Of a stretch of DNA of 64,000 nucleotides, positions 54,733 to 64,000 are shown piece by piece. Numbering within the stretch: the first letter of the stretch is position 1; every line of letters starts with the position of its first letter. Location of the stretch: the NCBI GenBank assembly GCA_029855935.1, contig JAGSHN010000019.1:41216-105215 (forward strand). The letters run 5' to 3'. The stretch is from Candidatus Thorarchaeota archaeon (GTDB lineage: Archaea > Asgardarchaeota > Thorarchaeia > Thorarchaeales > Thorarchaeaceae). Both the position numbers and the translations under genes were made by a program. The notes below the pieces were generated by a model. It was not told where the DNA came from, did no database searches, and saw only the letters and a program-made list of their open reading frames with translations.

Positions 54733-55833
54733 ATGAGAGATGCTCGACTCACCGGTGTCATTCTGGCGGCCGGGCGCGGCGAGAGGCTTAGACCGCTCAC
54801 CGACACAGTCCCAAAGGCGTTGATTCCCGTTGTTGGTAGACCCCTCCTCATGCGTATTCTCGAGGCGTTGAGAGAGGCCTCTGTGGAGCGAGTCGTTGTG
54901 GGCACGGGTTGGCTGGCGGACAGGGTCATTCATTACGTCCGGGATGAACTGGGGTCCGACGTGATGAACGTGCAGGCCGTCCCAGTTCCTGACTACGTTG
55001 TGGGACCTCTAATGACGTTCGTGAGAGCAGTCTCTACAGTGATTGATGCGGACAGCGGTTTGGAAGAGAATGATGGCAGTGATGACGAAGAGGCGGCTCT
55101 CATAGTATTCCCGGGCGACTGCCTGCTGCCGCCCTCTGTCGCACAGGTCCTTGTCAATGAGGTGGACAGGCTCTCTGAGGAGTGTCCTGTCATTGTCGCC
55201 GTCGCAGAGTCTGGCACGGGCGCAGAGGTGTATGGCACAGACGATGGTGTCCTCACCGGGTTGGGCCGTGCCGTTCGACCGGAGGGGACACTGGTGGGAC
55301 GTAGTGCGATGGGCATTGCCGTCTCTCGGAGGTCTGTTGGTGTCTTCTCTGCCGCTCTTGACAGCGGGCTCACAAGGCTCGCTGACGTCATCAATATGAT
55401 GATCACCAGAGACACGTCCCCCAGGTTCGTCCAGGTTGAGAACGAGTTCCCGGTTGTCGACATTGACACCCCCTCCAGCCTACTGATGGCTGTGCGTGAG
55501 GTACTCAGCAGGCCTGACCTGGTACCAATCCAAGATGGAGTCTTTGTGCCAGGGGGTGACGTCATAGATGTGGGACATGACCTCGTTCTCTCGATGCAGA
55601 CATCCATAGATGCTGGCACGGGTCTTCACGGCCCTGTCTATATTGGTCAAGGATGCAATATCGAGGGGGGCTCGCGTATTGGGCCCTGGGCGTGCATCGA
55701 GGGGGGTTCAGTCATCGGGCGCAACTGCACGATGCACGATGCACTTGTGCTCAGTGGCTCATCAGTCCCCGACGGGGCTCTTCTGTCCAACACAATCGTC
55801 TTCGGCGACATAGTACTGAGGAGTGATGAATGA
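54733..55833 (+). CDS. Sugar-phosphate nucleotidyltransferase with C-terminal LbH domain
   Basis: ILAAGRGERLRPLT..PKAL, DIDTP, hexapeptide tail. Confidence 0.85.
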   Translation: MRDARLTGVILAAGRGERLRPLTDTVPKALIPVVGRPLLMRILEALREASVERVVVGTGWLADRVIHYVRDELGSDVMNVQAVPVPDYVVGPLMTFVRAVSTVIDADSGLEENDGSDDEEAALIVFPGDCLLPPSVAQVLVNEVDRLSEECPVIVAVAESGTGAEVYGTDDGVLTGLGRAVRPEGTLVGRSAMGIAVSRRSVGVFSAALDSGLTRLADVINMMITRDTSPRFVQVENEFPVVDIDTPSSLLMAVREVLSRPDLVPIQDGVFVPGGDVIDVGHDLVLSMQTSIDAGTGLHGPVYIGQGCNIEGGSRIGPWACIEGGSVIGRNCTMHDALVLSGSSVPDGALLSNTIVFGDIVLRSDE

Positions 55834-56455
55834 GTTGCCAAGCAGGTTTCGTCTTCGACGTGTCTTTAGAGGCGTGGTTCTCGCCATAGCCCGCCCTCTT
55901 GCATCACGCGGTGTCAACCCCGACGCAATCAGCTACCTGACTCTGCTGACTGCCTACGCTGGTGGTCTGCTTCTGCTGCTGTTTCAACACCAACCGGTCT
56001 TCGGCGTCTTTGTGTTTCTCACAGGCCTGTTTGATGGAGTGGATGGTGCAGTGGCACGGCTGAGTGGGAGGTCCTCGCCGATGGGTCCCCTTTTGGACTC
56101 GGTGGTGGACAAGGTCGCCGAGGTCACGCTCATACTGTTCATTGCATTGAGCCTTCCTGAGGTGGTGATTCTCGGAGTCTCCGTACCAGTCTGGTGTGTC
56201 CTGTGCGTTTCAGGCTGGCTGCTGACCAGCTATACACGTTGTCGTGCTGAGTCGCTGGGCGTGAGTGACCTTGACATTGGTCTTGGAGCGCGGTCTGAAC
56301 GCCTCTTCACGTTGTTCGTGTTTTCGGTCTTCTGGCTTCTCAGGTGGGGACTTGTGGTTGTGACCCTGCTTGGAATCGGCACTGCAGCATACCGTTTTCG
56401 TCACTACAGTGAGGAGCTGCAGCAGGCCACGCGATCGGATCTTGAACAGGCGTAG
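55826..56455 (+). CDS. CDP-alcohol phosphatidyltransferase (archaetidylinositol phosphate synthase-like)
   Basis: DGVDGAVAR...G..LDSVVDK, SYTRCRAE, RSERL. Confidence 0.88.
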   Translation: MNELPSRFRLRRVFRGVVLAIARPLASRGVNPDAISYLTLLTAYAGGLLLLLFQHQPVFGVFVFLTGLFDGVDGAVARLSGRSSPMGPLLDSVVDKVAEVTLILFIALSLPEVVILGVSVPVWCVLCVSGWLLTSYTRCRAESLGVSDLDIGLGARSERLFTLFVFSVFWLLRWGLVVVTLLGIGTAAYRFRHYSEELQQATRSDLEQA

Positions 56456-57050: not shown

Positions 57051-57284
57051 CCGTAGTGACCGCCACCACTCCGCATCCTATCGCGCTCTCCACGAACAAT
57101 ATCCATCAGCGCTCCCTACTAGTTGCTGAGGCATTGTCAGTCCGGTGGAAGTTTGCAACCCCCAGACCAGAGTACAACAAACTTGTAGCCAGCCTCTCTC
57201 GACAGTCGAGGACTCCCGGCACCATCATACTTAAGAGCGACCCTAATCTCGGCGCAGTCCAGAGACGTAATGGAGCAAGGACTC

Positions 57285-57704
57285 ATGCCCATCTTCAGAG
57301 CTGACCACTATCTTCTTGCAGATATTGCGGATCCGACTGACATCAAGGAGGACGCTGAGAGAATCCTTGAGGGTCTGAAGGACATCCCCGTTCTCAAGGA
57401 CCTCGCAATGGTCTCGAAACGTCTTGAGGGGGCCTCGTGGATGGAGATACTCGGTCGCGTGGATATCCCCGAGGGGTCCAAGGCATTCTGGGCGATGGTG
57501 AAAAAGGAGGCAACCGAGAGAGAGCCTTACAATCTCTTCGTCAGAGTCGATGTCAATGCTGAGGCAGACGACATAGAGAGTGCGAGGGCGAAGGTGAAGA
57601 AGTGGATTGAGACCGAGTGGGTCCCAAAGATTGAGGCAAGGATTCCGCTCAAGAACGTGAGGGTGCTCCGCCCAGAAGAGATCTATATGCCTCCACTGAA
57701 GTGA
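57285..57704 (+). CDS. Hypothetical cytoplasmic protein
   Basis: Typical host codon usage; CTTAAG box ~57230 and AGGA RBS; no recognised family. Confidence 0.7.
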   Translation: MPIFRADHYLLADIADPTDIKEDAERILEGLKDIPVLKDLAMVSKRLEGASWMEILGRVDIPEGSKAFWAMVKKEATEREPYNLFVRVDVNAEADDIESARAKVKKWIETEWVPKIEARIPLKNVRVLRPEEIYMPPLK

Positions 57705-57717
57705 GCCTGTCAGACTG

Positions 57718-58734
57718 CTAATCGGTCACACGCAGCAGATAGATGGTATTCATCACAGCCTGTACTATCTCTCTATGCCCGTCACCGTCGACGTCACCGA
57801 CTGCGACGAGCGCGTCCGCTGCGCGTCTACGCGTCTTGATTGAGGCCTCCTCCACCAGCCGTCGTCCATCCAGCGAGAAGATACTTAGCAGCGAGTTCGT
57901 CTGCGTCAGAACCACCTGACCCGGCGAGGGAGCACCATCCGTTATCCTATCGACGACAACAGCGCTGACCGGACCCGGTGCCCGAATGTTGTCGTAGATC
58001 TCTATTCCCGTGGGGCCAGAACCGAAGACCGTGACGTTCCTATCGGCCACCGCCACTATCTCGTCCAGCCGACCCCCCGTGATCTGTCCAGTGGCGACAA
58101 TGTTCACTGGTCCTCTTGCCCGGAACTTCCCAATCTCATGCAGCCTGTCATCCGCATACTGATAGACAAAGATATGCTCACTGTCATCACCAAAGACGAA
58201 TCTGGAGTAGGGCAGGCTTCTACTACGGAACGGTGCTATTGAGAAGACGGGTCTCTCGACGACCTTGTGGGCGAGCTTGTCAAGTGTGTCTGAGAACCAT
58301 CCAAAACATCGGAGTGCGTTGTCATCGGTTGAGACTATCACTTCCGCCTTCTCGTCGCCCACCATATTCCCCACACAGACCGCCGTCGGCATAGTCCTGA
58401 GCGGACAAGCGCACATCTCAGTTATGTTATCGCCACCCAGCCCCACCACACGCAGGCTCGTATCCATCCCGCCAATCACTATGTCTGGTTGGCCGTCCCC
58501 GGTCACATCACCTATCGCCATCGCGGCCACGGGAGGGAGATTGGCGAGCCTCACGACCTCCACAAAGGAGCCCTCGTTCCCGAGCCGCATGATCCGGACT
58601 GCACCGTCTATGGTGGTCACGACCAACTCATCACGGTTGTCCCCTGTGACATCAACGAGGGCAATCGAAGTCACTGTTTCTCTCAGTGAGTGTTCGGAGA
58701 CCATGTGTATCTCTGTCACAGGGTGCACCACCAA
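57718..58734 (-). CDS. Cytoplasmic FG-GAP/VCBS-repeat beta-propeller protein
   Basis: Repeats DVTGDNRDELVV, GDVTGDGQPDIVI, GNMVGDEKAEVIV, GQITGGRLDEIV, GDVDGDGHREIV; no signal peptide or TM. Confidence 0.8.
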   Translation of the reverse strand: MVVHPVTEIHMVSEHSLRETVTSIALVDVTGDNRDELVVTTIDGAVRIMRLGNEGSFVEVVRLANLPPVAAMAIGDVTGDGQPDIVIGGMDTSLRVVGLGGDNITEMCACPLRTMPTAVCVGNMVGDEKAEVIVSTDDNALRCFGWFSDTLDKLAHKVVERPVFSIAPFRSRSLPYSRFVFGDDSEHIFVYQYADDRLHEIGKFRARGPVNIVATGQITGGRLDEIVAVADRNVTVFGSGPTGIEIYDNIRAPGPVSAVVVDRITDGAPSPGQVVLTQTNSLLSIFSLDGRRLVEEASIKTRRRAADALVAVGDVDGDGHREIVQAVMNTIYLLRVTD

Positions 58735-58847
58735 GGACTTGCGCGGCCCTTGGCGACTTCAGACCGAGCGGGATTTAAGAGTTGTTCCGTGAGGCTAGAG
58801 TGGACACTTGGGTCAACAGGCCAACGATAGTCTCGAGACGAAGTGAT

Positions 58848-59426
58848 ATGCGCAGGGATGATCTTCTCACCGAGCCAGTGCGGCTTGAACATTGGAATGC
58901 ATCTGTCGACGAGGTCGCCCACCAGCTCTCGTCTTTCGTGCTTGAGTTCGAGTCTTTTACGCCTGAATCTTTCTCGGAGATAAAGTTCCATTTGCTCAAG
59001 GGTCCCGGCCTGACAAGGGAGGCGCGACGAGAGTTCTGCAGAGTGGCCATCGCTCACAGTCACTGTCCATCCTGCGAGGACCTGTATGTGGCAAAGAGGT
59101 GCCCTCTGTGGTACCGTCTATACCGGACGGTGCGCTGGCACAGCCTGCAGCGAGCACCGCCCTGCATCCGCATTGCGTACGTACGCCGGAACATCAAGAC
59201 GGTGGTGGACTACCTTGCGTTGGCAGGACTACTCTCTCCACCATTCTACAGACCGCCTCACGGTCTGTCCTGCCGGATGATGCAGAGTTGGGACCTCTGC
59301 AGACCCAACACGTATTGTACTGCCAAGCGGACTGACAACGTACTCGAATACACCTCTGCTCGCGAGAGGGTCAAGTTGTCTCGCCCTCTTCACTCAGATC
59401 TCGACATCGATGAAGAGGAAGATTGA
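58848..59426 (+). CDS. Cys-rich protein resembling the primase large-subunit C-terminal Fe-S domain
   Basis: PPCI, YRPP..LSCRMM...LCRP...C, plus CPSC...CP. Confidence 0.55.
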   Translation: MRRDDLLTEPVRLEHWNASVDEVAHQLSSFVLEFESFTPESFSEIKFHLLKGPGLTREARREFCRVAIAHSHCPSCEDLYVAKRCPLWYRLYRTVRWHSLQRAPPCIRIAYVRRNIKTVVDYLALAGLLSPPFYRPPHGLSCRMMQSWDLCRPNTYCTAKRTDNVLEYTSARERVKLSRPLHSDLDIDEEED

Positions 59427-59485
59427 ACAAAGGCCACGTATGACCCCTATCGTCTGATGCAATCGCTTGGCATAGGTGGACAAAG

Positions 59486-60997
59486 ATGTCTGATGAGCGG
59501 CCCGGCCGAGAAGGCCCGACTGGGGCTCTACAGGATGAGATTGACACCGACCTGATTCGGATGATCAGACGGACTGGGCTCCGTGAGGATGTCCTCATCC
59601 GAGCACGTCAGTCCCAGAACACGGACTGGCTGTCCATCGAACGCATCCTCAGGGAGCACGAGCAGATGGAGTCTCTTGCTCAGCGTTACTCTCGCCCGAA
59701 GGCGATCCAAGACCCCGTCCACGGGGCCATTCTCCTTGAACCGTGGGAGCTTGATGTGATCTCCACTTGGACGATGCAGAGACTGAGGTACGTGCGTCAG
59801 CTGGGCCCTGCGTACTTGGTCTACCCCGGAGCGAACCACACGCGCTTTGAACACAGCCTCGGCACAAACTATCTCGCTCAGAAGTGTCTGCGGGTTGTAA
59901 GCTATTGTGACAAGCTAGGCGCTGAATCATTTCATCCCCTCAACAGGCTCCTCGACGATGATCAACAGATGTTGTTCCGGGCGGTTGCACTCCTGCACGA
60001 TGTGGGTCATCCTCCGACATCTCACACAATTGAGCCGGCGCTGGGGTCTTGGGCTGGGCTGAGCCATATCGACCTGAGCGAGTATCTCATCCTCCACAGC
60101 GAGATAGCCGATGTTCTCAGCGAAAACGGGTTGTCGGCCATTGTCGTTGCGGATGTCCTCCGCCGACGCGTCTCGGACCCCATCCTCCGGCTCATCTCCG
60201 ACTTCATTGACTCGCCCCTTGACATTGACAAGACAGACTATCTCATCAGGGACGCACGCTTTAGTGGTGCCGAACTCGGACTGTTTCCTGCGGAACGGGT
60301 CCTGCTGACAAGCCGTGTGGTCAGGCTCGATGGCGCGTACGTGCGAGCGTTTATGATTAAGGCCCTACATTCACTGGAGGCTCTGATGCTGAGTCGCAAC
60401 TGGATGTTCAGCGACCTCTACTTCCATCACACGGTGCGGGTGGCCGAGTCGCTCATCGACAGGGCCACATACCTGAATCTGCGGGAGGAGGGGCTCTCAC
60501 GTAGCGAGTGTATCGGTCTGTTCACGAGAATGACTGACGAGGACCTCTATCGGTGGCTCGCCTCCTCGGATATGGCGATAGTTCGGGAGTATGTGAACAG
60601 AATTCGTCACAGAAGGTTATTCAAGGTGGTCGTCACACGCCGTCTGGAGTCCCTCTCTGACGCCACGAGAGATCGTCTCCTAACTGCAGCGAGGGATGTT
60701 GAGAGGCTGATGGAGATTGAGAAGGAGCTGCTTGACAGTTCTGGCGGCGTGATTGTGGACGTAGTAACTCCCGAGGTGGGTGCTGAGAAGATCTCGCAGA
60801 TTCCGCTCATCGTGCCCGACGCGGTTGGTAGAGCACGAGTCGTCAGGATGACAGAGATTGAGGCGGGTCGTCCTCTTGTATCAATACTCGAACAACAGCG
60901 CAGGACAATGCCCACCGTGAGGCTCTATGCAGACGCCACGAACGCGGAGACGGTCGTACGCAGGTTCAACAAGGAGTTTCCATCCGCCACGGGCTGA
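59486..60997 (+). CDS. HD-domain dNTP triphosphohydrolase family (SAMHD1/YdhJ-like)
   Basis: IQDPVHG, QRLRYVRQLG, VYPGANHTRFEHSLG, LLHDVGHPPTSH, DIDKTDYLIRD, YFHHTVR. Confidence 0.92.
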   Translation: MSDERPGREGPTGALQDEIDTDLIRMIRRTGLREDVLIRARQSQNTDWLSIERILREHEQMESLAQRYSRPKAIQDPVHGAILLEPWELDVISTWTMQRLRYVRQLGPAYLVYPGANHTRFEHSLGTNYLAQKCLRVVSYCDKLGAESFHPLNRLLDDDQQMLFRAVALLHDVGHPPTSHTIEPALGSWAGLSHIDLSEYLILHSEIADVLSENGLSAIVVADVLRRRVSDPILRLISDFIDSPLDIDKTDYLIRDARFSGAELGLFPAERVLLTSRVVRLDGAYVRAFMIKALHSLEALMLSRNWMFSDLYFHHTVRVAESLIDRATYLNLREEGLSRSECIGLFTRMTDEDLYRWLASSDMAIVREYVNRIRHRRLFKVVVTRRLESLSDATRDRLLTAARDVERLMEIEKELLDSSGGVIVDVVTPEVGAEKISQIPLIVPDAVGRARVVRMTEIEAGRPLVSILEQQRRTMPTVRLYADATNAETVVRRFNKEFPSATG

Positions 60998-61025
60998 TCT
61001 CTGTTCGGTGTCTCTGTGACCCAGT

Positions 61026-61715
61026 CTATCGCTCAACCAGCGGGTCGATGATACCTATTACCGCATCGAGTCCGTGCATCAGGTAGACAATCCCATAGAT
61101 TGCCTCCACGAGGGTGCCCTTGTCGTGCTCCATCTCCGACTTGCTCTCGGCTGGCGGGTCAAAGTGAATCCGATACTCGTACAGGCGCCATTCATCGCAC
61201 AGTGCGGCGAGATGCTCGTTACTTACAGAACGTGCCCGTGCTTGGGTCAGGTCCCCCACATCCAGCATCTCAGGAGTCCATAGCCTATGAAGCACCGCCA
61301 GAGAGATTGCCGCATCCCCGACCAGCGCCAAGACCTTGGCCATCTCGCTTGTAGAGGCGAGTCGTCTGAGCATATCGCAGTCAACGCTGGCGCCGGGCTC
61401 TATGCCTCTGCAGAAGTGACTCTCCAGCTCTAGAAACAGGTTCTTTGTGCTAGGCTGGAACAGTGAGACGATGAGCATCTCCTCCCTGTGTATCTCGACC
61501 CCCAGACGTGATTTGAGATGTGGAATGAGCTCGGTCTTGGCCCTCTCAATCCTGAAGAGTATGGACCCTATCTGGTCGAGCCAGCGTTCAAACTTCTGGA
61601 TTGTCCTGGTGTTCTCAGACGGCACTGCCTCCATCTCATTCTCCAGGAACCGACCTATCTGCAGCAGTGCTCTGTGAATACCGATGTCCCTCCAGGGCAG
61701 AATCATCCGTTTCAC
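61026..61715 (-). CDS. RNase III-family nuclease (Mini-III-like, no dsRBD)
   Basis: LALVGDAAI, VSNEHLA, GTLVEAIYGIVYL; GTGA overlap with the upstream gene. Confidence 0.8.
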   Translation of the reverse strand: MKRMILPWRDIGIHRALLQIGRFLENEMEAVPSENTRTIQKFERWLDQIGSILFRIERAKTELIPHLKSRLGVEIHREEMLIVSLFQPSTKNLFLELESHFCRGIEPGASVDCDMLRRLASTSEMAKVLALVGDAAISLAVLHRLWTPEMLDVGDLTQARARSVSNEHLAALCDEWRLYEYRIHFDPPAESKSEMEHDKGTLVEAIYGIVYLMHGLDAVIGIIDPLVER

Positions 61716-62506
61716 AATAGCCCCCTGCCTGGGATGTAGTGTGTGAGAGTGGTCTTCCTCGCCCTGTGCCTCCTGATGTATATGGCGGTCACAGCGTAGT
61801 CGTTGGCAAGAAGGCAGAAGGCGAGTCCTATTAGAGAGGGCGCCGTTGAGAGGTCGAAGATGACATTATGCCCGGGTAGCTCCTCCAGCAGAATCTTCTC
61901 TATGTGTGAGTATGTCGCCATAAGGTCGCCTTGGACCCCACCGTCTTGGTATCCCACCACCTCCTTGGGCAGCTCGTCCCAGATTCCCTCCCATCTCTTG
62001 GTGGTACCATCCGGCACATGTCGTGTCAAGTCCTTCGAAACACCTTTTGCAAACCTCGCTGCCTCGACAACGATCCTGAGCCGGTTGAAGTGTGCCTCCG
62101 CCTCCTGAGTGAACCAGTGCACAAGTGGTCGCACCTGCTCCGGATTCGAGACCGAGGATATGACGGTCGTGTTACGTGTCACATTGAGCACACGACGTAC
62201 AGCTGGTGCGGCCCGTGGCGCGATGCTGAATACCCTCTGCCTGGACTCGCGGTGGCTCACAATGATACCAAGTCTCTCCAAGTGTCTGGTGTTGAAGTAG
62301 AGCTTCGGGTCTGTCACCACCACCTTGTCCTCGTCGATGTCCGTCTTGCCAGCGCGGTGCATCCTTTCTATCATGTCACGACGGATCTTCTCACGGAGCT
62401 GGCTACCGGTCCTCGGCCCCTTCTCAAGCTCCTCCAGTATCACCCTGCGCGCACTGACGCTCTCTACCTCTCGTCTGATCACCTCGTCCGCAGTTTCCCA
62501 GAACAT
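61712..62506 (-). CDS. Winged-HTH regulator fused to a CARF-like Rossmann domain
   Basis: RRVILEELEKGPRTGSQL...LYFNTRHLERLGII wHTH; C-terminal GDLMATYSHI...NVIFDLSTAPSLIGLAFCLLA...AIYI CARF-like core; ATG 62506 after GAGGAG. Confidence 0.7.
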   Translation of the reverse strand: MFWETADEVIRREVESVSARRVILEELEKGPRTGSQLREKIRRDMIERMHRAGKTDIDEDKVVVTDPKLYFNTRHLERLGIIVSHRESRQRVFSIAPRAAPAVRRVLNVTRNTTVISSVSNPEQVRPLVHWFTQEAEAHFNRLRIVVEAARFAKGVSKDLTRHVPDGTTKRWEGIWDELPKEVVGYQDGGVQGDLMATYSHIEKILLEELPGHNVIFDLSTAPSLIGLAFCLLANDYAVTAIYIRRHRARKTTLTHYIPGRGLL

Positions 62507-62740
62507 ATCTCCTCGAACAAATATCAACAATATATGTGATATATGTATTGTCATGGCTGGGAACGTTCCCAATGTACGCCTGACACCCCGACAGGGTCTG
62601 TGTGTGACGATGATCCGTCCGTCATAGGTCCAGATCGGCAAACACTGCGGAGACGGTCGTCATGACGGCTCAAATTGATACTATATCACCTATGTATATC
62701 AAGTAGTTATTGTTCGGAAGGGGCCTCATCCCGACAAGGC

Positions 62741-62747
62741 TTAAATA
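62741..62747 (+). promoter_or_regulatory. Probable TATA box of the actin gene
   Basis: aaggcTTAAATA about 100 nt upstream of ATG 62843. Confidence 0.5.
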
Positions 62748-62842
62748 CACGCGTCCGCAAGGTATTAGCAGAGTTCTGTGAAGCTGTGGGCGAAGAACTT
62801 GGATTCTTATCCAGAAAAAACTGAAGAGAGGACCGAATCAAA

Positions 62843-63982
62843 ATGGCTGAAGACGAGTTTCTGGGCGCCAAGCCGATTGTCATAGACAATGGCACTGGCT
62901 TGAGCAAGAACGGGTACGCGGGTGAGGACCAGCCACGGAGCGTCTGGCCGACGCTGATCGGCTATCCACGGTATGAGAGCATCATGACCGATGTTGACCA
63001 CTACACACGTGACTACTACATCGGTGAAGAGGCTATCAACCTGCGTGGTGTGCTGAAACTGGTCTACCCCATCACGCACGGTGTCATCGAGGACTGGGAT
63101 GCCATCGAGAAGATCTGGAGCTACACCTTCTACAACGACCTGAAGGTGGACCCCAGTGAGAATCCCGTCCTGCTGACCGAGGCCCCGTTCAATCCTCGTG
63201 AGAACAGGGAGCGGATGGCCTCCGTGATGTTCGAGAACTTCGGTGTGCCGGCGGTCTACGTGGCAACACAGGCCATCCTGTCACTCTACGCTTCTGGTAG
63301 AACGACGGGCCTCGTGGTTGACTCCGGTGATGGTGTCACCCACATCGTGCCCATCTACGAGGGCTTCTCGATCACACACGCTATTCGGAGGATTGACCTC
63401 GCAGGTCGTGACATCACCGAGTACCTGCGCAGGCTTCTCAGACAGAGAGGCTACTCCTTCGTCAGCGGCGCGGAGAAGGAGATAGTCCGTGACATCAAGG
63501 AGAAGCTGTGCTACGTCGCTCGCGATCCTGAGCAGGAGCGTATGGTGGCCGACTCGGCTGGTGTCGACAAGCAGTACATGCTGCCTGACGGCGAGACGAT
63601 AACAATCGGTGCTGAGCGTTTCCTCGCTCCCGAGCTGTTCTTCAATCCGAGCGCCATAGGCCTTGACACAATGCCCCTTGACGAGCACATCGTCGAGGCA
63701 ATCAAGGCATGCGATGTCGACCTGCGACGTGACCTCTATGCCAACATTGTGCTCTCGGGCGGCTCCACGATGTTCGAGGGGCTGAAGGACAGACTCCTGA
63801 AGGAGATATCCGAACTCGTACCCGAGAATGTCGAGGTCAGGATCATCGCACCTCCGGAGCGTCAGTACTCCGTCTGGATTGGCGGAAGCATCCTTGCATC
63901 ACTGAAGACCTTCCAGAAGATGTGGGTCTCACGCAAGGAGTTCGAAGAGGCCGGTCCAGAGGTCATCCACCGCTGTATCTAA
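62843..63982 (+). CDS. Asgard actin (Lokiactin-type)
   Basis: [88 protein letters not shown]; 379 aa. Confidence 0.97.
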
Positions 63983-64000
63983 GCGCTCGCTAGTTCATAA

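What the first reader, a model, noticed from the sequence alone, without database searches (positions are those of the whole stretch)
59486..62506. CRISPR-independent wHTH-CARF-like regulator + Mini-III RNase operon converging on an HD dNTPase: candidate nucleotide-signalling or defence module
Seen: a 264-aa wHTH protein whose C-terminal half follows the CARF pattern (beta1 TTVISSV, D-helix GDLMATYSHI, then NVIFDLSTAPSLIGLA...AIYI). It overlaps by GTGA with an RNase III-domain gene, and a SAMHD1-like HD dNTPase ends 28 nt away on the opposite strand. No cas genes or array occur in the window. Known: CARF domains bind cyclic oligoadenylates or RNA-derived ligands; Csa3 is CARF-then-HTH, the reverse of this order; dNTP depletion and RNA cleavage are antiviral strategies. 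Inference: a ligand-sensing regulator controls a dsRNA nuclease, possibly with dNTP-pool control. The usual GGxK ligand loop reads TAPS, so the ligand may be novel.
Basis: partly seen in the sequence, partly recalled or inferred. Interest (0 to 1): 0.78.

Follow-up and report, generated by a model that had tools for sequence, protein, structure and literature searches.

The report
Actin-linked CARF regulator with RNase III
A DNA-binding protein with a CRISPR-type (CARF) sensor fold is co-transcribed with a stripped-down RNase III and sits head-to-head with the actin gene in nearly every Thorarchaeon, so it looks like a core regulatory locus tied to actin and not an antiviral module.

Summary
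The three genes, the GTGA overlap and the 28-nt convergent gap are real. The C-terminal half of the 264-aa protein is a genuine CARF fold (Z 13.8-11.7 to VC1899, Can2, Cdn1, Csm6, Card1 and Csa3; PADLOC CARF_m5, E 1.8e-11).

The defence reading is not supported. The regulator is a near-universal gene of Thorarchaeaceae (72/76 genomes, almost always one copy). It lies in a fixed block, whereas Cas10 was found in only 11/81.

The RNase III pairing holds in 30/30 Thor loci but is confined to that family. The HD gene is a family-specific paralogue, kept in 24/27 loci, on the opposite strand.

The deepest conserved partner is the divergently transcribed actin gene. It is head-to-head in 29/29 Thor loci and 13/18 loci from other Asgard families, while actin's other flank varies even within Thor. 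A palindromic box recurs upstream of the actin TATA and over the regulator's own promoter.

Most likely this is a homodimeric, ligand-sensing transcription factor controlling its own RNase III operon and probably actin. Thor members have lost the basic CARF-motif residue that non-Thor relatives keep.

This scan has reported the same system before in other Asgard genomes. No paper describing the actin link was found.

The parts
61712..62506 (-). wHTH-CARF regulator gene (264 aa, P0001). Residues 1-111 form an ArsR/PadR-like winged helix; residues 112-264 form the CARF domain.
   Evidence: AF2 model with pLDDT 89. VIA-align Z 13.8-11.7 to CARF proteins over residues 111-264, and Z about 10-12 to RosR, TubR, HlyU and CzrA over residues 1-111. 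PADLOC CARF_m5 at E 1.8e-11. Start codon confirmed by homologues.
61715..62173 (-). CARF-domain coding part (residues 112-264). Beta1 ends in S118. The beta4 motif is D218-L-S-T-A-P-S224, with no basic residue.
   Evidence: The predicted homodimer interface is centred on residues 192-199 and 219-236.
61026..61715 (-). RNase III without a dsRBD (229 aa, P0002). It has an N-terminal helical hairpin (residues 13-71) followed by a full RNase III domain (about 57-229).
   Evidence: Pfam PF00636 at 2e-12. AF2 pLDDT 92.8. Z 14.4 to T. maritima RNase III and Z 10.6 to Mini-III 4oun. hhalign against E. coli Rnc keeps the D45 and E117 equivalents (D134, E204) and replaces E38 with K, E41 with A, E65 with V and D114 with T.
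59486..60997 (+). Long HD plus HD_assoc_2 phosphohydrolase of the SAMHD1/EF1143 family, one of four such matches in the genome, convergent on the RNase III gene.
   Evidence: Pfam. PDB 2hek at 1.4e-37 and SAMHD1 at about 1e-25. Four HD_assoc_2 matches in G000; the roughly 500-aa form is the one syntenic with the operon. Present in 24 of 27 Thor loci that reach that far.
62507..62842 (.). 336-nt divergent spacer between the regulator and actin, with low GC.
   Evidence: Alignment of 29 Thor spacers shows conserved blocks.
62530..62544 (.). Palindrome ATATA-N5-TATAT over the regulator's presumed promoter (candidate autoregulatory operator).
62681..62697 (.). Conserved box (consensus AYRTA-N5-TRYAT; one mismatch in this window) about 55 bp upstream of the actin TATA (candidate operator).
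   Evidence: Aligned column block across 29 Thor spacers. The 12-mer AT[AG][GT]GTGATATA occurs only here and at 62532 in the whole 2.97-Mb genome.
62740..62747 (+). Presumed actin TATA box CTTAAATA (promoter role inferred).
   Evidence: The 8-mer is present in 26 of 29 Thor spacers.
62828..62836 (+). Conserved GAGGACCGA just before the actin ATG (presumed ribosome-binding site).
   Evidence: Present in 23-24 of 29 spacers.
62843..63982 (+). Asgard actin (lokiactin-type), 379 aa. The contig ends 18 nt after it.
   Evidence: Pfam Actin at 2.2e-133. 90-97% identical across the Thor loci and 65-90% identical in other Asgard families.

Best explanation
P0001 is a homodimeric one-component transcription factor. 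An N-terminal ArsR/PadR-like winged helix reads DNA, and a C-terminal CARF domain of the minor family CARF_m5 acts as sensor. The domain order is reversed relative to Csa3.

It is a core Asgard gene that has stayed head-to-head with the actin gene. I infer that the dimer binds the palindromic boxes in the shared spacer. One box lies over its own promoter, which would give autoregulation. In Thorarchaeaceae that also sets the level of the co-transcribed, dsRBD-less RNase III. The other box lies 33-55 bp upstream of the actin TATA, which would modulate actin transcription.

The ligand is unknown. Non-Thor relatives keep the canonical D-x-[TS]-x-G-x-[RK] CARF motif. Thor proteins have replaced it with DLS-T-A-P-P/S and gained two conserved basic/aromatic insertions, so their ligand, if there is one, probably differs.

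The HD paralogue is a positional neighbour with no shown functional tie.

Shown here: folds, family membership, phyletic pattern, synteny and conserved DNA boxes. Inferred: DNA binding at those boxes, the target genes and ligand control.
For: Fold: CARF hits at Z 13.8 (1xmx), 13.0 (Can2, Cdn1), 12.7 (Csm6), 11.9 (Card1) and 11.7 (Csa3), with rmsd 2.6-3.5 over 121-138 residues. Foldseek gives E 8e-6 to 1e-4 to Csm6, Cam1 and Card1. PADLOC CARF_m5 scores E 1.8e-11 for P0001 and 2.4e-80 to 1.5e-22 for the non-Thor relatives tested.

Homodimer: ipSAE 0.73 against a best control of 0.00. That mark was reached by 20/30 proteins solved as pairs and 1/23 solved as single chains. The runs agree in at least 96% of contacts and partner pLDDT is at least 87. 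The interface lies on the CARF beta4-alpha4 loops.

Core gene: 72/76 Thorarchaeaceae genomes, almost always a single match. Cas10 palm domain in only 11/81.

Synteny: actin is divergent in all 29 Thor loci with that flank, and RNase III lies directly downstream in 30/30. In 18 loci from other Asgard families, 13 are head-to-head with actin, 1 is co-directional, and none has RNase III. Actin's 3' flank is shared by only 1-6 of 31 Thor loci and by none of the distant loci.

Spacer: AYRTA-N5-TRYAT occurs 30 times in 20/29 Thor spacers, against 0.5 in shuffles, at two fixed positions. Palindromes with 11-nt arms (one with a single mismatch) lie 33-51 bp upstream of the actin TATA-like box in four other families. 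The window's two sites share a 12-mer found nowhere else in the genome.

Established knowledge, recalled and not checked here: conserved divergent pairs that include a transcription factor usually mean regulation of the partner plus autoregulation (Korbel et al. 2004, Nat Biotechnol).
Against: There is no binding, expression or ligand data, and no RNA run was available.

The boxes are AT-rich and may partly be TATA elements. The spacers are related sequences, so the shuffle controls overstate significance. The degenerate palindrome is not enriched genome-wide (15 found, about 18 expected by my own rough estimate).

The family has left the actin locus in at least two lineages (f7 and f28). It was not detected in the larger Asgard families f5, f9 and f22, which express actin without it.

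Thor proteins lack the basic CARF-motif residue, so ligand sensing may have been lost.
Confidence: 0.55

Rival explanations
1. It is a transcription factor whose CARF-like domain is now only a dimerisation scaffold with no ligand. It autoregulates its own operon with RNase III, and the adjacency to actin reflects shared promoter architecture without regulation of actin.
For: Thor proteins lack the G and the basic residue of the CARF beta4 motif. In the dimer model the TAPS loops of the two chains touch each other (residue 224 with 224, 222 with 224). One box overlaps the regulator's own promoter.
Against: The second box, about 55 bp upstream of the actin TATA, is conserved across Thor genera in an otherwise unalignable spacer. 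The actin pairing is kept across classes while actin's other flank is not. Non-Thor relatives keep the canonical ligand motif. The Thor-specific insertions are highly conserved (R162, R171, W176, G193), which suggests a functional surface.
Confidence: 0.22
2. It is an RNA-status sensor analogous to RtcR. The CARF domain would sense RNA-derived ends or oligonucleotides, for example products of dsRNA processing or damage, and tune the co-transcribed RNase III.
For: Tight operon with an RNase III in 30/30 Thor loci. The regulator does not track CRISPR. There is a weak PADLOC hit of one Thor member to the RtcR CARF profile (E 0.015). From knowledge, not tested here: RtcR's CARF domain senses tRNA fragments.
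Against: The regulator family predates the RNase III pairing and exists without it in at least 10 other Asgard families, which also lack any RNase III. RNase III products carry a 3'-OH and not a cyclic phosphate (from knowledge).
Confidence: 0.1
3. One reading: a nucleotide-second-messenger antiviral module in which the CARF regulator controls a dsRNA nuclease and works with an HD dNTPase that depletes dNTPs.
For: CARF fold. The genome does carry a Cas10-like gene and arrays elsewhere. The HD paralogue is syntenic in 24/27 Thor loci. There is a weak HD-motif hit to the PADLOC dGTPase profile (9e-6).
Against: The regulator is an almost always single-copy gene, present in 72/76 genomes at a fixed position between actin and conserved genes, which is the opposite of a defence island. 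Cas10 was found in only 11/81 genomes. RNase III matches no PADLOC model. HD is convergent, absent from 2 loci and reduced to fragments in 1. The CARF basic residue is missing.
Confidence: 0.06

Closest known systems
CARF_m5 (minor CARF family, PADLOC-DB profile PDLC01987 'CARF_m5--CARF')
   Same: The profile covers both domains. Non-Thor relatives match at 2.4e-80 to 1.5e-22, and P0001 matches at 1.8e-11 over residues 20-246.
   Different: Thor members are divergent. They have two insertions (residues 162-175 and 185-191), the beta4 motif DLSTAPP/S in place of D-x-T-x-G-x-R, and a downstream RNase III. I could not read the source classification paper. No function or actin link was found in the literature searched.
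Csa3 (Csa3a/Csa3b), CARF-wHTH transcription factors of Sulfolobales
   Same: CARF plus winged helix in a one-component dimeric regulator. Structural match Z 11.7 to 6wxq. The nearest named Atlas clusters carry Csa3_N or HFX_2341_N.
   Different: The domain order is reversed. The gene is not next to cas genes and does not track Cas10. The basic ligand-loop residue is absent in Thor.
RtcR (CARF-AAA+-HTH activator of the bacterial RNA repair operon)
   Same: A CRISPR-independent CARF regulator placed beside an RNA-metabolism gene.
   Different: RtcR has a sigma-54 AAA+ architecture and is bacterial. Only a marginal profile hit was seen (E 0.015 for one member). The resemblance is functional analogy only.
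Bacterial RNase III (Rnc) and Mini-III (MrnC)
   Same: RNase III catalytic fold. Z 14.4 to T. maritima, 14.0 to C. jejuni, 13.4 to E. coli and 10.6 to Mini-III 4oun. The D45 and E117 equivalents are invariant. Like Mini-III it has no dsRBD.
   Different: It has a 60-70-aa N-terminal helical hairpin. The equivalents of E38, E41, E65 and D114 are K, A, V and T. Other Asgard families carry an RNase III of different layout, with the nuclease domain N-terminal and about 100 aa of untested C-terminal sequence. That Mini-III shares the A/T substitutions is recalled from memory and was not tested.
EF1143/SAMHD1-type HD dNTP triphosphohydrolases
   Same: HD plus HD_assoc_2 domains. 2hek at 1.4e-37, EF1143 (2o6i) at 2.9e-31 and SAMHD1 at about 1e-25.
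   Different: This is a long form (503 aa) with an extension of about 70 aa, one of four matches in the genome. Activity and any defence role are untested.

Membership tests
CARF superfamily | Rossmann-like CARF fold | tested here: met
   Z 13.8-10 to more than 15 solved CARF proteins over residues 111-264, well above unrelated rows. Foldseek probability 1.00.
CARF superfamily | Profile match to a curated CARF family | tested here: met
   PADLOC CARF_m5 at E 1.8e-11 for P0001. Relatives score up to 2.4e-80 and also hit the CARF1, CARF3, CARF4 and Csx1 profiles.
CARF superfamily | Small polar residue at the end of beta1 (definition recalled from Makarova et al. 2014) | tested here: met
   S118 is invariant in the 15 Thor sequences. 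The loop is G/S-rich in the relatives.
CARF superfamily | [DN]x[ST]xxx[RK] motif after beta4, including the basic residue | tested here: not met
   The window protein has D218-L-S-T-A-P-S and Thor consensus is DLSTAPP, with no R or K. Non-Thor relatives do carry D[VL][TS]xGx[RK].
CARF superfamily | Homodimer with the ligand site on the two-fold axis | tested here: inconclusive
   The model supports a symmetric dimer through residues 192-199 and 219-236: ipSAE 0.73, best control 0.00, a mark reached by 20/30 solved pairs and 1/23 single chains. CARF dimers have been solved, so the pass may reflect likeness to them.
CARF superfamily | Binds a cyclic oligoadenylate or other nucleotide ligand | not testable with these tools
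   Needs biochemistry.
Csa3 | N-terminal CARF followed by C-terminal wHTH | tested here: not met
   The order here is wHTH (residues 1-111) followed by CARF (112-264).
Csa3 | Association with CRISPR-cas loci | tested here: not met
   No cas genes within 6 kb in the 31 Thor loci (checked against the window's own neighbours). Cas10 in 11/81 genomes against the regulator in 72/76.
Mini-III (MrnC) | Single RNase III domain without a dsRBD | tested here: met
   The model is all-helical and ends with the RNase III domain, and the alignment has no C-terminal extra domain.
Mini-III (MrnC) | Compact protein of about 130-140 aa, closest in fold to Mini-III | tested here: not met
   229 aa with an N-terminal hairpin. 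Canonical RNase III domains score Z 14.4-13.4 over 135-152 residues, against Z 10.6 over 105 residues for 4oun.
Class 1 RNase III (Rnc) | Full acidic catalytic set (E. coli E41, D45, D114, E117) | tested here: not met
   hhalign against E. coli Rnc aligns A130 with E41, D134 with D45, T201 with D114 and E204 with E117. A, D, T and E at these positions are invariant or nearly so in 36 sequences.
Class 1 RNase III (Rnc) | C-terminal dsRBD | tested here: not met
   Absent.
HD dNTPase (EF1143/SAMHD1 type) | HD domain plus HD-associated C-terminal region | tested here: met
   PF01966 at 8e-7 and PF19276 at 2.5e-19. 2hek at 1.4e-37. The H...HD...D residues are visible in the sequence.
Anti-phage defence system | Variable, island-like, patchy distribution | tested here: not met
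   Near-universal, almost always one match per genome, at a fixed position beside actin. RNase III has no PADLOC match.

The most novel reading that the evidence does not exclude
A CARF second-messenger sensor has been recruited in Asgard archaea as a dedicated, CRISPR-independent switch of the eukaryote-like actin gene. In Thorarchaeaceae the same switch also drives a reduced RNase III. This would couple an unknown small-molecule signal to cytoskeleton expression and dsRNA processing.
Probability: 0.3. Interest if true: 0.85.

Novelty: new variant of a known kind. Interest (0 to 1): 0.6.

Why it matters
Nothing is known about how Asgard archaea control the actin cytoskeleton that makes them relevant to the origin of eukaryotes. 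A conserved sensor-regulator placed head-to-head with actin, with identifiable DNA boxes, gives a concrete hypothesis that can be tested in vitro. It would also show CARF signalling working outside immunity.

The Thor-specific operon adds a conserved archaeal RNase III with a two-residue catalytic core. Archaea are often said to lack RNase III (stated in PMC11404451), yet PF00636 was found in 198/301 Asgard genomes searched here.

Tried and rejected
RNA evidence: no RNA holder was listed for window 59400-64000. Only the probable source metagenome, from a hydrothermal vent, holds the sequence. Transcription starts, operon structure and expression could therefore not be checked.

Shared half-site: I looked for a [GT][TC]GATA[TG]AG half-site across all Asgard spacers. 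It occurs in the window and in several non-Thor families but in no other Thor spacer, so I dropped it.

Degenerate palindrome: AYRTA-N5-TRYAT is not enriched genome-wide (15 hits, about 18 expected by my own rough estimate). No regulon could be inferred from it.

Spacers without a palindrome: six non-Thor spacers (L037, L038, L042, L043, L045, L051) show no inverted repeat above shuffle level.

Other Asgard families: a profile built from Thor plus distant members found no relative beside actin in families f5, f9, f14, f16, f22, f24 and f27, and the genes upstream of actin there are unrelated to one another.

RNase III-HD pairing elsewhere: in six RNase III loci from other Asgard families (f5, f9, f22, f24) no HD or CARF gene lay within about 5 kb. 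The locus fetched for the sister family f2 gave no match to the Thor RNase III profile.

Sequence-only search of the PDB with the regulator profile gave nothing significant. Pfam and NCBIfam gave only sub-threshold HTH hits.

The bacterial sigma-70 and terminator scan is uninformative for an archaeon.

Literature: the CARF classification paper (PMC7498327) is not held. Searches for Asgard actin with CARF, neighbouring regulators or synteny found no description of this pair.
Full report
**1. Observation**

- An HD protein at 59486-60997 (+), 503 aa.
- An RNase III-domain protein at 61026-61715 (-), 229 aa.
- A wHTH protein at 61712-62506 (-), 264 aa.

The ATG at 62506 is the start shared by 14 homologues. 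The regulator's stop overlaps the RNase III GTG as GTGA. The HD and RNase III stops are 28 nt apart and convergent. Pfam gives a sub-threshold HTH_20 hit, Ribonuclease_3 at 2e-12, and HD plus HD_assoc_2 at 2.5e-19. Directly upstream, across a 336-nt low-GC spacer, lies an actin gene (62843-63982, Pfam Actin 2.2e-133).

**2. The regulator is a wHTH-CARF protein**

An AlphaFold model built from 15 homologues has pLDDT 89. An exhaustive structural comparison places residues 111-264 on solved CARF domains:
- VC1899, Z 13.8
- Can2, Z 13.0
- Cdn1, Z 13.0
- Csm6, Z 12.7
- Card1, Z 11.9
- Csa3, Z 11.7

These alignments have rmsd 2.6-3.5 over 121-138 residues. Residues 1-111 fall on ArsR/PadR-type winged helices such as RosR, HlyU, CzrA and SmtB (Z about 10-12). 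Foldseek agrees.

Following a lead from earlier notes of this scan, I scanned PADLOC-DB. The profile CARF_m5 matches P0001 at 1.8e-11 and matches non-Thor relatives at 2.4e-80 to 1.5e-22. The family is therefore already catalogued as a minor CARF family, although sources annotate its members as hypothetical or PadR-like.

A two-copy model supports a symmetric dimer. The ipSAE is 0.73 against a best control of 0.00. That mark was reached by 20/30 proteins solved as pairs and by 1/23 solved as single chains. The runs agree in at least 96% of contacts and partner pLDDT is at least 87. The interface runs through residues 192-199 and 219-236, the CARF beta4-alpha4 region. Because CARF dimers have been solved, this shows likeness and does not prove dimerisation.

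**3. The ligand motif**

In Thor proteins the beta4 motif reads DLSTAPP/S and lacks the basic residue. Relatives in other Asgard classes read D[VL][TS]xGx[RK], the canonical CARF signature. Thor proteins also carry two insertions (residues 162-175 and 185-191) rich in invariant R, K, W and G residues. The Thor form is thus a derived variant of a family that was ancestrally canonical. Whether it still binds a ligand is open.

**4. This is not a defence island**

| Feature | Genomes with a match |
|---|---|
| Regulator profile, Thorarchaeaceae | 72/76, almost always one match |
| RNase III, Thorarchaeaceae | 73/76 |
| Cas10 palm domain, Thorarchaeaceae | 11/81; 6/23 among high-quality genomes |

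This genome does carry Cas1, a Cas10-like gene and arrays on other contigs.

In 31 Thor species genomes the gene order is fixed: actin, then the regulator on the opposite strand, RNase III, the convergent HD gene, an FG-GAP propeller, a 144-aa ORF and a CDP-alcohol transferase. RNase III follows the regulator in 30/30 loci that extend far enough. The HD gene is present in 24/27, absent in L019 and L020, and fragmentary in L031.

**5. Beyond Thorarchaeaceae**

Shorter relatives (213-268 aa in the 18 loci fetched) occur in at least 11 other Asgard families. Source labels include Frey-, Jord-, Hermod-, Baldr- and Ran-archaeia. One family has 1.4-Mb genomes.

I fetched 18 such loci. None has an RNase III nearby. 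In 13 the gene is head-to-head with the actin gene, in one it is co-directional upstream of actin, and in four it lies elsewhere (neighbours).

As a control I examined actin's other flank. Its genes are shared by only 1-6 of the 31 Thor loci and by none of the distant loci. The actin-regulator pair is therefore retained selectively and is not passive synteny.

Families f5, f9, f14, f16, f22, f24 and f27 have no detectable relative beside actin, and the genes upstream of actin there are variable.

**6. The spacer**

An alignment of 29 Thor spacers shows four conserved features:
- an actin TATA (G)CTTAAATA in 26/29;
- GAGGACCGA before the ATG;
- a box about 55 bp upstream of the TATA;
- an AT-rich box over the regulator's promoter.

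Both boxes fit AYRTA-N5-TRYAT. The pattern occurs 30 times in 20/29 spacers, against 0.5 in block shuffles. These spacers are related sequences and AT-rich, so the contrast is overstated.

In this window the two sites (62530-62544 and 62681-62697) share AT[AG][GT]GTGATATA in inverted orientation. That 12-mer occurs nowhere else in the 2.97-Mb genome.

In four other families, inverted repeats with 11-nt arms (perfect in three, one mismatch in the fourth) lie 33-51 bp upstream of the TATA-like box nearest actin. Six further spacers show none above chance.

**7. The RNase III**

The model (pLDDT 92.8) is a helical hairpin (residues 13-71) followed by a full RNase III domain, with no dsRBD. Its best structural matches are canonical RNase III domains:
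- T. maritima, Z 14.4
- C. jejuni, Z 14.0
- plant RTL4, Z 13.7
- E. coli, Z 13.4

Mini-III (4oun) scores Z 10.6.

Profile alignment to E. coli Rnc keeps D45 and E117 (as D134 and E204). It replaces E38, E41, E65 and D114 with K, A, V and T. The residues aligned to E41, D45, D114 and E117 are invariant or nearly so across the 36 sequences aligned. From memory, D45 and E117 are the indispensable residues in E. coli, so activity is plausible but untested.

Other Asgard families carry an RNase III of a different layout, with the nuclease domain at the N-terminus and about 100 aa of C-terminal sequence that I did not characterise. It is unlinked to CARF or HD genes there. A published report describes Asgard rnc genes encoding RNase III plus dsRBD next to Argonaute (bioRxiv 10.1101/2023.12.14.571608).

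**8. The HD gene**

It belongs to the EF1143/SAMHD1 family (2hek at 1.4e-37). It is one of four HD_assoc_2 matches in this genome, and Thor genomes have 2-5 each. The long form of about 500 aa is the one that sits beside the operon in Thor genomes. It is therefore a family-specific paralogue with conserved position. It lies on the opposite strand, is dispensable in some lineages, and shows no evidence of shared control.

**9. Reading**

The best-supported model is a dimeric, sensor-bearing transcription factor that autoregulates its operon and probably acts on the actin promoter. In Thorarchaeaceae that operon includes the reduced RNase III. Rival readings and their weights are given separately.

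**10. Prior knowledge**

This scan has independently reported the same actin-linked CARF regulator in other Asgard genomes, and the Thor operon as well. I reached the actin link, before reading those notes. The CARF_m5 lead came from them, and I tested it. I found no paper describing the pair. The CARF classification paper could not be read.

Noticed in passing
G000 contig C29:106655-127159 and contigs C18, C20, C24, C28: The genome carries Cas1 (C29:126326-127159), a Cas10-like gene (C29:116063-117226, 540-aa frame) and several CRISPR-like repeat arrays, all far from the window's contig.
   Followed up: partly
window 57718-58734 (-): A cytoplasmic-looking FG-GAP beta-propeller with Pfam hits to BBS2_Mid and the BBS7 propeller. 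It is syntenic in Thor loci. In the sister family (L041) it directly follows the regulator, so RNase III and HD appear to have been inserted between them in Thorarchaeaceae.
   Followed up: partly
window 55823-56455 (+) and 57270-57704 (+): A CDP-alcohol phosphatidyltransferase and a 144-aa ORF with no Pfam family stay near the regulator-actin pair in many Asgard classes. This suggests an older conserved block.
   Followed up: no
Asgard phylum sample: There is a near-complementary phyletic pattern. Families with the short CARF_m5 regulator (f3, f7, f8, f12, f13, f15, f19, f21) had no RNase III match. Families with an RNase III of the other layout (f5, f14, f22) had no full-length regulator match, and f9 gave only weak partial ones. 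Both occur in the Thor order (f1, f2) and in f28; f24 has RNase III but only weak partial regulator hits.
   Followed up: no
L044 and L054 (genome G067, contigs C30 and C24): There are two actin-regulator pairs in one genome with nearly identical spacers. This could be a duplication or strain heterogeneity in the MAG.
   Followed up: no
L048 (family f30): Here the regulator is co-directional and directly upstream of actin, not divergent, and it carries an insertion of about 19 aa in the wHTH.
   Followed up: no
window 62658-62667: A perfect palindrome CGTCATGACG lies in the middle of the spacer between the two AT-rich boxes. It is not conserved in the other Thor spacers aligned.
   Followed up: partly
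window 63982-64000: The contig (C8, 105215 bases) ends 18 nt after the actin stop, so actin's downstream flank is missing for this genome.
   Followed up: yes
window 58782-59426 (+): A 214-aa ORF upstream of HD with no Pfam match. A separate first-reader note reads it as PriL-CTD-like. I did not examine it beyond the Pfam scan.
   Followed up: no
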